Of a DNA stretch of 64,000 bases, positions 24,242 through 31,685 are shown one piece after another. Positions within the stretch are counted from its first letter, which is position 1. Every line of letters begins with the position of its first letter. Position numbers and translations under genes: made by a program. Under the pieces are notes generated by a model. It was given only the letters and a program-made list of their open reading frames with translations, had not been told where the DNA came from and did not search any database. This DNA is from an uncultured Alphaproteobacteria bacterium (GTDB taxonomy: Bacteria > Pseudomonadota > Alphaproteobacteria > Rhizobiales > CAWCWK01): NCBI GenBank assembly GCA_963842125.1, contig CAWJFE010000001.1, positions 1,475,592-1,539,591 on the forward strand, written 5' to 3'.

Positions 24242-24867
24242 GCGGGCTCCTCTCCTGACGAGGCGTCGGCGCATCGCTCGCGCGCCTCCTGCGCCAAAAG
24301 CTCCGCGCGCGCGAGCGGGCGGAGGTGGGGCGTCTCGGGTGCCCATCCGGCGGACCGGAGAGGCGCGGGGGCGACGGCCAGGCCGCAGGCCCTTTCGGAC
24401 CTCAAGTGGTGGGTGTGCGACGACCACGCGCCGCCCCCGCATAAGCGGCGACTTGATGATGGCTGAGCCACCCGTTCGCACGCCCCGCGCTTCGGCGGAT
24501 CGCGGCCGGCGCGCCCGATGGCCCGAGGGATGACCCAGGGGCGCCACGAGCGCGGACCGGCGGCGAGACCGCCTTAAGCCCCATGACCCCGCATCGGCGA
24601 AGCCGGGACGGCCGGGTCGTCTCCTTCGACGCGAGCAGGCGAGGTTGCCCTTGCCCACCCGCTCAGGTGCCCGACGGACGGATTGGCGCGCGACCCCTCG
24701 GGACCAGGGCGGACCGGACCACCCCGGGCGCGAGCGCCGCACCACCCCCCATGCGATCCCCGGTTCCGGATCACGGTGCCTCGTGGGAGGAGGTGACGCG
24801 ACCTTAACCGAGGCGAGGGGGGAGAAAACTCGCTTTTGTTGACCACCCCCGACCCGCCAACACGACG

Positions 24868-24950
24868 GCAGGGAGCGAAGGTCCCTTCCCATGAATGGGA
24901 AGGGATTTAGGGATGGGCTGATAGGCGCCGCAAGGCGCTGCGTCGCGACC
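24868..24950. repeat. About 80-nt repeat with palindromic core, copy 1
   Basis: ggcagggagcgaaggtcccttcccatgaatgggaagggatttagggatg plus a similar flank. The core ccttcccat-ga-atgggaagg is a perfect inverted repeat. Confidence 0.8.
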
Positions 24951-25378
24951 CCGTTGCACCCACCGCCGGGAGACCCGCTCGACCGCCACCGCCAACGCCA
25001 CCCCGCTATACGAGAGCTTTGATCATATCGCTCACGGCTAACGGCGCTGGCGCGCCGAACGCCTCCGCGAGGGCGGCCTGACCGGCCGACGCCCGGTCGG
25101 GCTTTGACAGGCTGGCTTCCAGCTTCGCGGCCGAAGACACGGTCGGCCGACACCGGTACTGCGCTTCCAGCGGACGGCGCCTTCCGCGAGAACTGCACGG
25201 TCGCCATCGGCAAACGCGTGGTGGGCTGCACCAAGCCGCTCTGGCTGCGCATCGGCGGCTACTGGTATCCGCGCGGCGGCATCCCGATCGACGTCTTCTG
25301 GCAGACGGGCACGCTACCGGACGGGGTGTGGGTGCCGGAGCAGGGGATGCCGAATTACCGAGGCCGCGGCTAGGCGCC

Positions 25379-25460
25379 GGCAGGGAGCGAAGGTTCCTTC
25401 CCATGAATGGGAAGGGATTTAGGGATGAGTTGAAACGCGCCGCTAGAGCGCTTGCCGCGC
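25379..25460. repeat. About 80-nt repeat with palindromic core, copy 2
   Basis: Differs from copy 1 at one position over the 49-nt core (ggtcc vs ggttc). Same orientation, 511 nt downstream. Confidence 0.8.
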
Positions 25461-25680
25461 TTAAAGCGTCATTCTGCGGTGTCGTCAGGGATGAGATGAG
25501 ATTGTAGGCGAAGCATGAATCCAATCTGACATATTCAGAAAACGGATTCGCTCGGCAGCACGGCCAGTCTCGATAGGTGGACGCCTTCGCTTCTTCCAAG
25601 CGATAACGCCTTAGAGACCTCTCTCCGAAACCGCTTCGTTGCGTCTGATAGTTCGCCAAACACATAATGCGCCGTGGCCG

Positions 25681-26568
25681 CTAATCCGCATCATCAGTTG
25701 TGCGAAGCCGAAGGAAAAGATCCGCAACACGCTCTACATTCTCAACCCAGCACCTGAGATCGTCTTTGTAAAGGGAGCGAACCTGCTTGTAAGTTGGTCC
25801 GGGCTCAACTGAGATCGTGTTGCCTATACGCTTCTCGACTAAAATTTCAGTTGCTTATCAGTCTGCTAGAAATGGAAACCAACTCCTTTGAGTAAGGCCC
25901 ATAGGAACCTCGCTCATATCGAAGTTTAGTAGGGACCCCAGTTGTGGTCAGGAAATAAGCGATTTTTTGAAACACTGTTCGGCCTACGGGGCGGTGATAT
26001 CGCTCCCGCATAATGCGGGAGGCAACCCCGACAAGTGCGGTCGCAGAAGCATCGATACTCGTAGACGGCTCGGGGGATGCGCTATCTTCTAAAAAGCTGA
26101 AATCAAGCTGCTCGTTAGGAGTGTCATAACGACATAGAGTTCAACATCGATATCATACCGTCTAGAATGCTCAGAAGAGAAGAGGTCCAACGACATTCCA
26201 CTCCAAGTGTCCATTGCCACAACCTAGTGGCGGTACAGCAATCGACTTAACGCCCCAATCTTTGTATGACTTCTCCAGTGAAGCCAAGCCTTCTTTTAGT
26301 CAGAAAGTCGTGACAAAGACCGCCAGTGATCTTTGGTAGGAAAGTTGATAATAGCATGCTTGCTGTCTCTGAAAATATATGGCTCTCCGAGACGCACATC
26401 GCCGCGTTTGCAACGCTGGACGTAGTCCGTATACATCTCCGGAAATTCTTTTTTGAAAGCGAGAGCAATACCTTTGCCCATCACTCCAACGCAGTTGACA
26501 GTGTTGACCAAGGCATCCGCTTTGGAGTCTAGGAGATTGCCAATTTTTGCATTGATGATAGCCGTCAC
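25681..26568 (-). pseudogene. darG: darG-like antitoxin gene (macrodomain ADP-ribosyl glycohydrolase + C-terminal domain), disrupted by four frameshifts
   Basis: Frame A (26568-26299): MTAIINAKIGNLLDSKADALVNTVNCVGVMGKGIALAFKK...INFPTKDHWR. Frame B (26299-26174): LKEGLASLEKSYKDWGVKSIAVPPLGCGNGHLEW. Frame A: DIDVELYVV. Frame B (26092-25850): FQKIAYFLTTTGVPTKLRYERGSYGPYSKEL. Frame A runs to TAG 25683-25681. Confidence 0.8.
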
Positions 26569-27158
26569 GCCCTGCCGAAAAATAGTTCGGTAGATACCTC
26601 TGTCGGTAGGCTACGCCACTGCGCTTGCACGCGCTCGACAGCCCGCTCGCCACATACATATGCCCCCCTAACCATCACGGGAGGCACAACATAAGGAACT
26701 AGGACTTCTGCGCATTTCGCCGATTTCTTCCGCCAATACTCAATTATATCATCATCGTTCCAATATGTTGCGAATGTTCTATCGCGATCCACGATCCCGA
26801 TGCCGTGTGGCAATTCTGAAATCGGACGTAGCTGGAAGCCGCGTTTTGATCCGTCACGACAGCGCCAGTCGTATGAATGACAGCGCGGATCGACGCGCAG
26901 AACGCAAATGTTTCCTCTCTGATTGATCCTTTTCCAAAGCATTGGATTTCGAGCGCATATATATAGGTTTACATACTCATGAAGGCGAAGCCCGTTCGGA
27001 ACTCTTTTAGCCCGCCTCTGCTGAATTTCGTCATCTGCTATCGACTGATGAGTAACGTTTGACACCCGTTCATGAGAAGGCAAACCGTGCTGTCGAACAG
27101 ATGCGAGGTTGGCGATCGGCAGGATGTAGCAGACCTCTGTCAGCTCAGCTTCAATCAT
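26565..27158 (-). CDS. darT: DarT-like (DUF4433) DNA ADP-ribosyltransferase toxin; ORF open but probably corrupted internally
   Basis: 197 aa with HEYVNLYICARNPMLW, IVDRDRTFATYWNDDD and SAKCAEVLVPYVVPP. ATGA overlap with darG. The conserved TD.NAAS-type segment is only readable in the +1 frame (26884-26819). Confidence 0.7.
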   Translation of the reverse strand: MIEAELTEVCYILPIANLASVRQHGLPSHERVSNVTHQSIADDEIQQRRAKRVPNGLRLHEYVNLYICARNPMLWKRINQRGNICVLRVDPRCHSYDWRCRDGSKRGFQLRPISELPHGIGIVDRDRTFATYWNDDDIIEYWRKKSAKCAEVLVPYVVPPVMVRGAYVCGERAVERVQAQWRSLPTEVSTELFFGRA

Positions 27159-27160
27159 GC

Positions 27161-29530
<2,370 letters not shown>

Positions 29531-29591
29531 GCCGGCGAATATAGGGTGAACATCGCGGCAAGGGGAGGGCGGACGAGCCCTCTTTCGAGCG

Positions 29592-31685
29592 CTACGCGGC
29601 CTGCACGCTCGGCGGCTCCTCGGCAGCATCCGACGCGCGGCCCCTCGCCGCCCGCATGGCCTCGGCCGCGAACTTCAGGAGGTGGAGGTTCGCGTCCTCT
29701 TCGTACATCGGCCGCCCGTAGAGGAAGCCCTGCAACTCGTCATAGCCCGCATCGCGCGCGAAGGTACGCTGCGCATCGGTCTCGATACCCTCCGCCGTCA
29801 CGCTCAGCTTCATCGCGCGGCTCATGGCGCCGATGGTCCGCAGCACCTCGGCCACGGTCTCGTCCTCGCCCAGCGACAGGAAGCACGAGCGGTCGACCTT
29901 CAGCTTGTCGAAGGGGAACATCCAGAGATAGCTGAGGCTCGAATAGCCGGTGCCGAAATCGTCCATGACGATGCGGGGCCCGAGCGCGCGCAGCTTGTGG
30001 AGCTCGGCCTGGACATGCTCCGGATCGCCGATGAAGAGCCCCTCGGTGATCTCAAGCTCCAAGCGCTCCGGGGCGAGGCCCGAGGTTTCCAACGCGCGGC
30101 TGACGTCGCTGACGATGTCACCGTCGAACTGCTGCGGCGAGAGGTTGACCGAGATGCGCACATCGGCCGGCCAGCCGGCGGCGACGCGGCAGGCCTCGTT
30201 CAGCACCCAGCGGCCGAGCTTTCCGGTCAGGTCCATCTCTTCGGCCAGCGGGATGAAGAGCACCGGCGAGATCAGCTCGCCATCGTCGCCCCGCAGCCGG
30301 ACGAGCGCCTCGAAGCTGCAGATCCGATCGTTCCTGCTGTCGTGGAGGGGCTGGAACTGAAGGACGAAATCGTCGGCCTCGACGGCATTGCGAAGGCGGG
30401 TGCGCAGTGCGTTGCGCAGGCGCAGCTCCTCGTACATGCCGGGGGCGAAGACGACATGCCGATCCTTGCCCAGCGCCTTGGCGCGATAGAGGGCGATGTC
30501 GGCGCATTTCAACAAGTCCTCCGGCGTCTGCGCGTGGGAGGGCGCCAGAGCGATGCCGACGCTTGCCGAGAGCGTGACGGGGATGCCTTCCACCTCGCGG
30601 ATCGCCCGGGTGGCATCCTCGATCCGGCAGGCGAGCGTCTGCGCTTCGTCCGTCGTCGTCACGCCGGTCTGAATGACCGCGAACTCGTCTCCGCCGAGCC
30701 GGGCCAACGTGTCCCCTTGGCGGATATGCTCCCCGATATCGAGCGCGAAGCGCGTCAGCACCGCATCGCCGGCATCGTGCCCGAGCGTGTCGTTGACGGC
30801 CTTGAAGCCATCGAGATCGATCATCAGCACCGCCGCCGTTCCGTCACCGCTCCGCCGCTGCCGCAGCATTCTGCGCAGGCGCTGCTGGAAGCTCGCCCGG
30901 TTCGGCAGGCCTGTGAGGACGTCGTGATGGGCGAGATGGCGGGCCTGCGCGTCGCTGCGCTCGCGGCGGCGAATGAGCCAGGCCGTATAGCCCGCATGAC
31001 CGAGAGCGATAAGGCCGAGCGCGACGACGAGCCAGTGAATGCTTCGAAGCCGCGTCTCGAAGAGCGCCCGCTTCGCCGTCTGATCGATGTAGACCTCCAT
31101 GACGCCGCGCATCTCGCCATCGACGAAGACGGGCACGTAGGCTTCCGCATAGTCGTCCGGCCGGTTCGGCTTGGCGCGGCCGTCGGCGGCCACCACGAAC
31201 GTCTTGCCGGCGAGAACGTGATGCGCGATATCGGGATTGTGCTCGTAGAGCGAGGCGTCCGTCGGCGCGGCGATCCCCTCGTCGGACACGTAGGTCAACC
31301 GGCCCTGGCGATCGAACATCTTCAGCCGAAAGACGTCTCCGGCCATGGCGCCCGTGATCGTTCGCAGCTCCATCGGGTCGGGCCGGCCATCGGTCAGCAG
31401 ACCGCCGTCCGAGGCGAGCTGCTCGGTCATCGCCATCGCCCAGGCCTCGGCCATCCAGGTCGCGTCCTTGTCGAGAAGACGGCGCGTCGTGTCGGAGACG
31501 AAGAACACGCTTCCCACGAATGCCGACAGGATCGCGGTCACGAGCAGCAGGTCGACGTAGCGCTTGCGACCGAGGCGGGGCAACGCCGCGGGCGGGCGCC
31601 TCTCGTCGGAGGCGCCGCGTCCGAACAATCGGCGGGCGCGATCTGCGATCCAACGGCCTTTGTCTTGCGATTGAACCGGAAGCAT
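29592..31685 (-). CDS. Membrane sensor diguanylate cyclase/phosphodiesterase (GGDEF-EAL)
   Basis: One TM helix after the N-terminal tail, a periplasmic domain and a second TM. GGDEF ([11 protein letters not shown]) and EAL (SFEALVRL, ...[10 protein letters not shown]). Start ATG 31685 or 31742; the track ORF extends to 32012. Confidence 0.85.

What the first reader, a model, noticed from the sequence alone, without database searches (positions are those of the whole stretch)
25681..26568. darG is readable end to end only by alternating between two frames (four +/-1 shifts)
Homology-like sequence continues through five segments:
- frame A 26568-26299, ending at stop TAA 26298-26296;
- frame B 26299-26174, ending at stop TGA 26173-26171;
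- frame A 26172-26092, ending at stop TAG 26091-26089;
- frame B 26092-25850, ending at stop TGA 25849-25847;
- frame A 25854-25684, ending at TAG 25683-25681.

Points that bear on interpretation:
- Each segment carries DarG-like motifs in its own frame, so the ancestral gene was a single ORF of about 295 codons.
- Only two of the three frames are ever used, meaning the indels alternate in sign.
- Two of the switch sites lie at A/T homopolymer runs (ctAAAAg, gcTTTTTag).
- An antitoxin this damaged next to an open toxin ORF is unexpected.
- Three explanations are possible: the cassette is a decaying relic, the toxin is dead (see next finding), or these are homopolymer-type assembly errors concentrated in the only AT-rich stretch of the window.
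Basis: seen in the sequence. Interest (0 to 1): 0.65.

Follow-up and report, generated by a model that had tools for sequence, protein, structure and literature searches.

The report
Decayed darT-darG toxin-antitoxin remnant
A 1.7-kb foreign, low-GC islet just after uvrB holds a dead DarT-DarG toxin-antitoxin pair (antitoxin gene broken by six frame shifts, toxin gene by two), which is ordinary gene decay unless re-sequencing shows local assembly errors.

Summary
On the minus strand, darG-like coding signal runs from 26568 to about 25490. It can be read only by changing frame six times, not four:
- at 26299
- at 26173
- at 26134-26125
- at about 25850
- at 25684
- somewhere in 25661-25598

The last shift enters the third frame.

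The joined reading scores 274.6 bits on NCBIfam DarG (cut-off 250) and is 50-54% identical to intact 373-381-aa homologues.

The open 197-codon darT ORF hides two compensating shifts (about 26888 and 26819). These scramble 23 residues, including the TDxNA stretch that aligns with active-site H119 of Thermus DarT. This removes the paradox of a dead antitoxin beside an open toxin ORF.

The genome has no other DarT or DarG. The sister species carries a different two-gene cargo at the same site.

Homopolymer-type assembly error is disfavoured:
- No shift lies at any of the islet's seven runs of 5 bases or more.
- Long native genes and other low-GC islands are intact.

Verdict: ordinary decayed DarTG2 cassette (about 0.78); assembly artefact about 0.15.

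The parts
27161..29629 (-). uvrB, 822-codon open ORF. It is the native high-GC gene directly upstream of the islet.
   Evidence: 95.5% nt identity to the sister species G001 over 27172-28492.
27205..27262 (-). uvrB 3' tail, after the UVR domain. It has two 1-nt length differences from G001, so the last ~37 codons are read out of the ancestral, GC3-rich frame.
   Evidence: DNA alignment. Translations.
25453..27171 (.). Low-GC islet (46-54% GC against 67% for the genome). It is absent from the sister species, which has another cargo here.
26565..27158 (-). darT, an open 197-codon ORF. Its stop overlaps the darG start as GTGA.
   Evidence: Pfam DarT 93.7 bits. PADLOC DarT 7.8e-28. Intact relatives in the same order score 198-213 bits.
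26819..26888 (-). Stretch of darT between two compensating shifts (+1 then -1). The conserved AVIHTTGAVVTDQNAASSYVRF is encoded in the other frame.
   Evidence: Frameshift-aware alignment to P0121 and P0122. Consensus of 118 homologues. Alignment to the Thermus DarT H119 region.
26299..26568 (-). darG segment 1, frame A. First 90 residues of the macrodomain, including NTVNCVGVMGKGIA and FPTKDHW (equivalent of K80). Ends at TAA 26298-26296.
   Evidence: NCBIfam DarG 2.8e-41..
26174..26299 (-). darG segment 2, frame B. Second part of the macrodomain (AVPPLGCGNG loop). Ends at TGA 26173-26171.
   Evidence: NCBIfam DarG 2.2e-13..
26134..26172 (-). darG segment 3, frame A, 13 residues (EHSRRYDIDVELY). 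Frame B has four stops over this stretch.
   Evidence: Removing this shift costs 19.5 bits and adds 4 stops.
25850..26134 (-). darG segment 4, frame B. Linker and start of the C-terminal YwgA-like (DarT-binding) domain. Ends at TGA 25849-25847.
   Evidence: Removing the shift costs 143 bits.
25684..25848 (-). darG segment 5, frame A. Ends at TAG 25683-25681.
   Evidence: HMM 245-303, E 5e-18..
25640..25684 (-). darG segment 6, frame B (LAATAHYVFGELSDA...). Its 3' limit is uncertain and lies anywhere in 25661-25598.
   Evidence: Scan of junction positions.
25485..25640 (-). darG segment 7, third frame (…VIAWKKRRRPPIETGRAAERIRFLNMSDWIHA…). Stop at 25487-25485.
   Evidence: HMM 320-365, E 1.6e-10..
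25611..25613 (-). TAA that is in frame only if the sixth shift lies upstream of it. This is a possible nonsense change, not an established one.
   Evidence: The pairwise alignment to P0063 favours it. The family HMM cannot decide: 505-511 bits for all placements.
25375..25452 (.). Copy of an ~80-nt repeat with a palindromic core (CCCTTCCCATTCATGGGAAGGG), at the islet's left edge. A second copy lies at about 24860-24940. More copies occur elsewhere in the genome and in G001.
25104..25373 (+). QueF-like ORF tail, convergent on the islet. It forms the native left flank.
   Evidence: Pfam QueF 1.8e-10..

Best explanation
This is a horizontally acquired DarTG2-type toxin-antitoxin (anti-phage) cassette. 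It inserted about 15 nt downstream of uvrB and has since been inactivated and is decaying.

What is shown:
- darT (ADP-ribosyltransferase acting on thymidine in single-stranded DNA) and darG (macrodomain glycohydrolase plus a C-terminal DarT-binding domain) lie in the canonical order, with an overlapping GTGA stop/start.
- darT carries two compensating frame shifts that scramble 23 residues of the catalytic core.
- darG carries six frame shifts, so translation from its start stops after 90 residues.

What is inferred:
- The toxin was disabled first. Loss of DarG beside an active DarT is lethal or bacteriostatic.
- Once the toxin was dead, the antitoxin was released from selection and collected small indels at a neutral rate.
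- Nothing functional is made today, apart from a possibly inert 197-aa DarT-derived protein and a 90-aa macrodomain fragment.
For: Identity of the genes:
- Pfam, NCBIfam and PADLOC hits.
- The joined darG reading scores 274.6 bits on the NCBIfam DarG equivalog (cut-off 250); an intact homologue scores 295.7.
- It is 50-54% identical over 98-99% of its length to 373-381-aa proteins.
- Its macrodomain matches the M. tuberculosis and T. aquaticus DarG structures at 1e-36 and 2e-33.

Breaks:
- Six shifts in darG.
- Two in darT, which remove the motif that aligns with Thermus DarT H119, listed among the active-site residues in PMC9967889.

Foreign origin:
- 46-54% GC against 67% for the genome.
- Absent from the same-genus genome, which carries another cargo at the identical site.
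- DarT is present in only 3 of 41 related genomes.

No back-up antitoxin: there is only one DarT locus and one DarG locus in the genome.

Relaxed constraint:
- The joined reading differs at 7 of 77 columns that are at least 98% conserved. Homologues differ at 0.37 on average and 2 at most.
- It has the longest terminal branch, 0.88 against a median of 0.22.

Natural indels in this lineage: the unconstrained uvrB tail shows 2 indels and about 15 substitutions against G001 in about 100 nt.

Against artefact.

Biology: DarG neutralises DarT by hydrolysis and by binding (PMC5179494, PMC11543638). DarG depletion kills M. tuberculosis (PMC7689832).
Against: - Every disruption is a +/-1 frame shift. 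There is no large deletion and no secure nonsense codon.
- With about 8 indels, one would expect roughly 2-3 nonsense changes. Finding 0-1 has a probability of about 0.1-0.3.
- The family signal is almost undiminished: 274.6 against 295.7 bits for darG, and 101.6 against 110 bits for frame-followed darT.
- About half of the conserved-column mismatches sit at junctions. The long branch may also reflect the lack of close relatives in the databases.
- No reads and no second strain could be examined.
Confidence: 0.78

Rival explanations
1. Local assembly or consensus errors. On this view the cassette is intact in the organism, and the eight 1-nt indels are artefacts of an unpolished or poorly covered patch.
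For: - Only +/-1 indels are seen. There is no secure nonsense codon and no larger deletion.
- Protein-family scores of the frame-followed readings are close to those of intact homologues.
- The density, about 0.5% per base, resembles raw long-read consensus error.
- Two further 1-nt differences lie in the adjacent uvrB tail.
Against: - 6 of 8 junction windows have no run of 4 or more bases. The islet's seven runs of 5-6 bases carry no shift.
- 112 of 138 long ORFs of the sister species (about 155 kb) are collinear with no frame change. The flagged remainder examined were shadow or intergenic cases.
- Other low-GC islands in the same assembly hold open ORFs of 345-583 aa.
- No heavy tail of phase-switch-dense patches appears genome-wide.
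- The islet is unique in the genome and lies inside a 1.58-Mb contig.
- The uvrB-tail indels sit among about 15 substitutions, as expected of real divergence.
Confidence: 0.15
2. Selected remodelling rather than pure decay. The second darT shift was kept because it restores the frame. That would preserve a non-toxic DarT-derived protein, or preserve translational coupling into darG, for some time before darG decayed.
For: - The two darT shifts are only 68 nt apart and of opposite sign, and the intervening out-of-frame stretch has no stop, so the ORF stays open.
- Outside that stretch, 44 of 49 columns that are at least 95% conserved are kept.
- The GTGA overlap with darG is intact.
Against: - Compensating pairs also occur in darG (shifts 1/2 and 3/4), where stops in between make them useless. 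Alternation is therefore not evidence of selection. Five of six 'return' transitions has p of about 0.11 by chance.
- No relative carries the same allele, so conservation cannot be tested.
Confidence: 0.05
3. Programmed recoding. On this view a functional DarG is made by ribosomal frameshifting or transcriptional slippage at the six sites.
For: Only the alternation of frames within 26568-25681.
Against: - Six events would be needed, including one into a third frame.
- The junction windows show no shared slippery motif.
- No Rfam element is present.
- The partner toxin is itself scrambled.
- Homologues are single ORFs.
Confidence: 0.01

Closest known systems
DarTG2 toxin-antitoxin / anti-phage system (Thermus aquaticus DarTG, M. 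tuberculosis Rv0059/Rv0060, EPEC DarTG)
   Same: - Gene order darT then darG, with overlapping stop/start.
- DarT (PF14487) domain with equivalents of R51, H65, Y71, M78 and E160.
- DarG with an N-terminal macrodomain (FPTK catalytic lysine motif, G-rich loop) and a C-terminal YwgA-like DarT-binding domain.
(PMC5179494, PMC11543638.)
   Different: - Neither gene is intact.
- Sequence is only about 30-37% identical to the characterised systems and 50-54% to the nearest database proteins.
- The NCBIfam DarT equivalog cut-off is not reached, but the intact nearest homologue does not reach it either.
Metagenomic and Inquilinus-type DarG/DarT pairs (P0001-P0120; P0003 and P0121 from GCA_042743185.1)
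   Same: These are the nearest relatives. They share the same domain layout and length class (DarT 196-198 aa, DarG 373-381 aa) and the same adjacency.
   Different: They are single open ORFs. The window's copy needs 2 + 6 frame changes to follow them.
HD-domain (dNTPase-like) plus YwgA-like two-gene cargo at the same site in the sister species G001
   Same: - Same insertion point, starting about 15 nt after the uvrB stop.
- Similar size (1.83 kb) and low GC.
- Its second gene shares a 38-aa stretch with the DarG C-terminal domain (E 4e-6).

   Different: - The first gene is different (HD phosphohydrolase, not an ADP-ribosyltransferase).
- There is no macrodomain.
- Both ORFs are open.
- Its left border cuts into the QueF-like ORF.

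Membership tests
DarTG2 (DarT + macrodomain DarG) | A DarT (DUF4433 / PF14487) ADP-ribosyltransferase gene | tested here: met
   Pfam DarT 93.7 bits against a cut-off of 22.5. PADLOC DarT 7.8e-28. The NCBIfam equivalog cut-off of 150 is not reached (76.2 as the ORF stands, 101.6 frame-followed), but the intact homologue P0121 also scores only 110.
DarTG2 (DarT + macrodomain DarG) | Adjacent downstream antitoxin with an N-terminal macrodomain (not NADAR) and a C-terminal DarT-binding domain | tested here: met
   Met only for the conceptual joined reading: NCBIfam DarG 274.6 bits against a cut-off of 250, covering 1-325 of 338. PADLOC DarG 1e-86. PDB DarG macrodomains 1e-36.
DarTG2 (DarT + macrodomain DarG) | Both genes are intact open reading frames able to give full-length proteins | tested here: not met
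   darG has six frame shifts, and the longest piece from the start is 90 aa. darT is open, but 23 codons are read out of frame.
DarTG2 (DarT + macrodomain DarG) | DarT active-site residues (Thermus R51, H65, Y71, M78, H119, E160) | tested here: not met
   Equivalents of R51, H65, Y71, M78 and E160 are present. The H119-equivalent position (N of TDQNA) is encoded only in the alternative frame and is lost from the ORF (PMC9967889).
DarTG2 (DarT + macrodomain DarG) | DarG catalytic lysine (Taq K80) and the ADP-ribose-binding glycine loop in one polypeptide | tested here: not met
   FPTKDHW lies in segment 1. The PPLGCGNG loop lies in segment 2, in another frame, after a TAA.
DarTG2 (DarT + macrodomain DarG) | Toxicity of DarT that is neutralised by DarG; reversible ADP-ribosylation of thymidine in ssDNA | not testable with these tools
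   This needs expression and biochemistry.

The most novel reading that the evidence does not exclude
The 3' end of uvrB may be a dedicated docking site in this genus for tiny two-gene cassettes. Each cassette pairs an effector (DarT here, an HD phosphohydrolase in the sister species) with a protein carrying a YwgA-like domain. The cassettes start about 15 nt after the uvrB stop, so they would be read through from the DNA-damage-regulated uvrB transcript. The compensated shift in darT would then be a selected way of disarming the toxin while keeping translation flowing into the coupled downstream gene.
Probability: 0.06. Interest if true: 0.45.

Novelty: new member of a known kind. Interest (0 to 1): 0.2.

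Why it matters
Mostly it matters for annotation.
- The locus should be annotated as a darTG pseudogene pair, not as an active toxin with a missing antitoxin.
- The open darT ORF should not be counted as a functional toxin or defence gene.

It is also a clean small example of the expected order of decay in a toxin-antitoxin pair: toxin first, then antitoxin. It further shows that the intergenic spot after uvrB is a variable cargo site in this genus.

If re-sequencing showed the shifts to be artefacts, the finding would instead flag a local quality problem in an otherwise good assembly.

Tried and rejected
2. Same allele in other assemblies: exact look-ups of the 197-aa and 90-aa ORFs found nothing. 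A search of 5.8 billion protein clusters found only the window's own DarT at 100%, with the next hit at 52%. 'Same indels in sister strains' could therefore not be tested.
3. Counting 1-nt gaps in megablast alignments of G000 against G001 was uninformative. At 88.6% identity the aligner makes many spurious gap pairs.
4. A tblastn screen flagged 26 of 138 ORFs as split or containing stops. The cases examined were antisense shadow ORFs or intergenic junctions, not frameshifts.
5. An in-frame TAA at 25613-25611 looked like a nonsense substitution, which would argue against an artefact. The family HMM is flat (505-511 bits) for any placement of the sixth shift in 25661-25598, so the TAA is not established.
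6. Alternation of shift sign as a signal: five of six transitions return to the previous frame, p about 0.11. This is not significant.
7. Rfam scan of 20-32 kb: nothing.
8. DarT-motif (TNTC/TTTW) enrichment at the junctions was considered but not tested. The junctions are located only to about +/-10 nt, which leaves no statistical power.
9. DarTG loci in two same-order genomes (G004, G021) are only 36-37% identical and give no help in placing the indels.

Full report
**Locus and context**

The window is G000:C1:1475592-1539591, part of a 4.12-Mb, six-contig, 67%-GC genome. On the minus strand the order is as follows:
- uvrB, 29629-27161, an open 822-codon ORF.
- A 197-codon darT ORF, 27158-26565.
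- darG-like sequence, starting at GTG 26568. This start overlaps the darT stop as GTGA.

GC content falls from 67-70% to 46-54% between about 27150 and 25450.

**Check of the observation**

Each long segment matches DarG in its own frame:
- NCBIfam DarG positions 1-90 (2.8e-41), 92-131 (2.2e-13) and 165-229 (3.8e-9).
- A profile I built from 120 homologues hits frame A at 26556-26257 and 25857-25681, frame B at 26299-25838, and the third frame at 25637-25503 (E 1.6e-10).

I wrote a frameshift-aware protein-to-DNA alignment and ran it against three intact homologues, P0002, P0003 and P0063. All three give the same map:

| Shift | Sign | Position |
|---|---|---|
| 1 | -1 | 26299 |
| 2 | +1 | 26173 |
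| 3 | -1 | 26134-26125 |
| 4 | +1 (or -2) | about 25850 |
| 5 | -1 | 25684 |
| 6 | -1, into the third frame | 25640-25607 (25661-25598 by the HMM scan) |

Removing any one shift from the joined reading lowers the profile score (507.5 bits) by 19.5-143 bits and brings in 1-5 stops.

The observation therefore holds, with these corrections:
- There are six shifts, not four.
- The third frame is used.
- The gene had about 360-380 codons.

**What it is**

- The joined reading is 50-54% identical over 98-99% of its length to 373-381-aa macrodomain/YwgA-like proteins.
- It passes the NCBIfam DarG equivalog cut-off, at 274.6 bits against 250. The intact P0003 scores 295.7.
- It matches PADLOC DarG at 1e-86.
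- Its macrodomain matches the solved DarG macrodomains of M. tuberculosis and T. aquaticus at 1e-36 and 2e-33.
- The upstream ORF is DarT: Pfam 93.7 bits and PADLOC 7.8e-28.

A macrodomain antitoxin defines the DarTG2 class, which ADP-ribosylates thymidine. The NADAR class, DarTG1, acts on guanosine (PMC11543638).

**The toxin**

I aligned intact DarTs (P0121 and P0122, taken from the loci of the two best DarG homologues) to the DNA. This shows a +1 shift at about 26888 and a -1 shift at about 26819.

- Between the shifts, the ORF reads RCHSYDWRCRDGSKRGFQLRPI.
- The other frame reads AVIHTTGAVVTDQNAASSYVRF, which is the family consensus (…tD.NAss.YvrF…).
- This stretch aligns with TDRH(119)GVLSHARF of Thermus DarT. 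H119 is listed among the active-site residues R51, H65, Y71, M78, H119 and E160 (PMC9967889).
- Equivalents of the other five residues are present.

The ORF scores 93 bits on Pfam DarT, against 198-213 bits for intact copies in two same-order genomes. The 'open toxin beside a dead antitoxin' is therefore only apparent.

**Foreign origin and site**

- The only same-genus genome, G001 (88.6% nt identity), shares sequence up to window 27172 and again from 25261.
- In between it carries a different 1.83-kb low-GC cargo. This is a 423-aa HD-domain, dNTPase-like protein and a 176-aa protein with a 38-aa match to the DarG C-terminal domain.
- DarT occurs in 3 of 41 related genomes.
- G000 has no second DarT or DarG.

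**Real decay or assembly artefact?**

No second assembly of this allele exists in the collections.

Indirect evidence against an artefact:
- Of eight junction windows, only two hold a run of four bases (AAAA at 26297, TTTT at 25844).
- The islet's seven runs of 5-6 bases (26668, 26582, 26548, 26454, 26095, 26076, 25968) carry no shift.
- 112 of 138 long G001 ORFs are collinear in G000 without any frame change. The flagged ones I examined were shadow ORFs or intergenic junctions.
- Other low-GC islands of this assembly hold open ORFs of 345-583 aa.
- A GC3-phase scan shows no patches dense in frame switches.
- The joined reading departs from 7 of 77 columns that are at least 98% conserved. Homologues depart at 0.37 on average and 2 at most. 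It also has the longest terminal branch.

Evidence that keeps the artefact alive:
- All lesions are +/-1 indels.
- There is no secure nonsense codon. The TAA at 25613-25611 is in frame only for some equally scoring placements of shift 6.
- There are no larger deletions.
- Family scores are almost undiminished.

The neighbouring uvrB tail differs from G001 by two 1-nt indels among about 15 substitutions in about 100 nt. That is an indel-to-substitution ratio near 1:7 in unconstrained DNA of this lineage. On that ratio, eight indels imply roughly 50-60 substitutions. That fits the modest excess of conserved-site changes. It would predict 2-3 nonsense codons, where 0-1 are seen (p about 0.1-0.3).

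I put real decay at about 0.78 and artefact at about 0.15.

**Mechanism**

This section is inferred from established DarTG biology:
- DarT ADP-ribosylates thymidine in single-stranded DNA and blocks replication.
- DarG reverses the modification and also binds DarT (PMC5179494, PMC11543638).
- Loss of DarG with an active DarT is lethal (PMC7689832).

The toxin must therefore have been disarmed first. The antitoxin then drifted. The alternation of shift signs is not significant (p about 0.11), and the compensated pairs in darG contain stops. I therefore see no evidence of selection or recoding.

**Verdict**

This is an ordinary, well-preserved pseudogene pair of a known family in a variable cargo site after uvrB. 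Interest is low. The one step that would change the reading is re-sequencing.

Noticed in passing
L009 3680-5511 (G001:C4, same site as window 25262-27171): The sister species carries a different low-GC two-gene cargo directly after uvrB. The first gene is a 423-aa HD-domain, dNTPase-like protein (Pfam HD 1.2e-9; weak anti-phage dGTPase hits). The second is a 176-aa protein with a 38-aa YwgA-like match to the DarG C-terminal domain. The uvrB 3' end is therefore a variable cargo site.
   Followed up: partly
window 27205-27262 (-): The uvrB tail after the UVR domain has two 1-nt length differences from G001. As a result, G000's last ~37 codons are out of the GC3-rich ancestral frame, and the ORF ends 13 nt later, at TAG 27163-27161, instead of at the shared ...WKKKAVEM* stop.
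   Followed up: partly
window 25104-25373 (+): A QueF-like ORF tail (Pfam QueF 1.8e-10) converges on the islet. Upstream of it, the expected QueF N-terminal motifs are not readable in any single frame in either G000 or G001. In G001 the last ~37 codons are replaced by the cargo. This may be a queF remnant.
   Followed up: partly
window 25375-25452 and about 24860-24940; also G000:C1:715085-715143 and three places in G001: An ~80-nt repeat with a perfect palindromic core (CCCTTCCCATTCATGGGAAGGG). It is REP- or terminator-like. One copy forms the left edge of the islet. It has no Rfam match.
   Followed up: partly
G000 C5:2300805, C2:27240, C5:1065570, C5:279525, C2:35280, C1:478995: These six 2-kb stretches have the most GC3-phase switches in the genome (7-9 per 2 kb). 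I did not inspect them. They could be clusters of small genes or further pseudogenes.
   Followed up: no
window 26565-26568: The darT stop and the darG start overlap as GTGA. This translational coupling signal is still intact despite the decay.
   Followed up: yes
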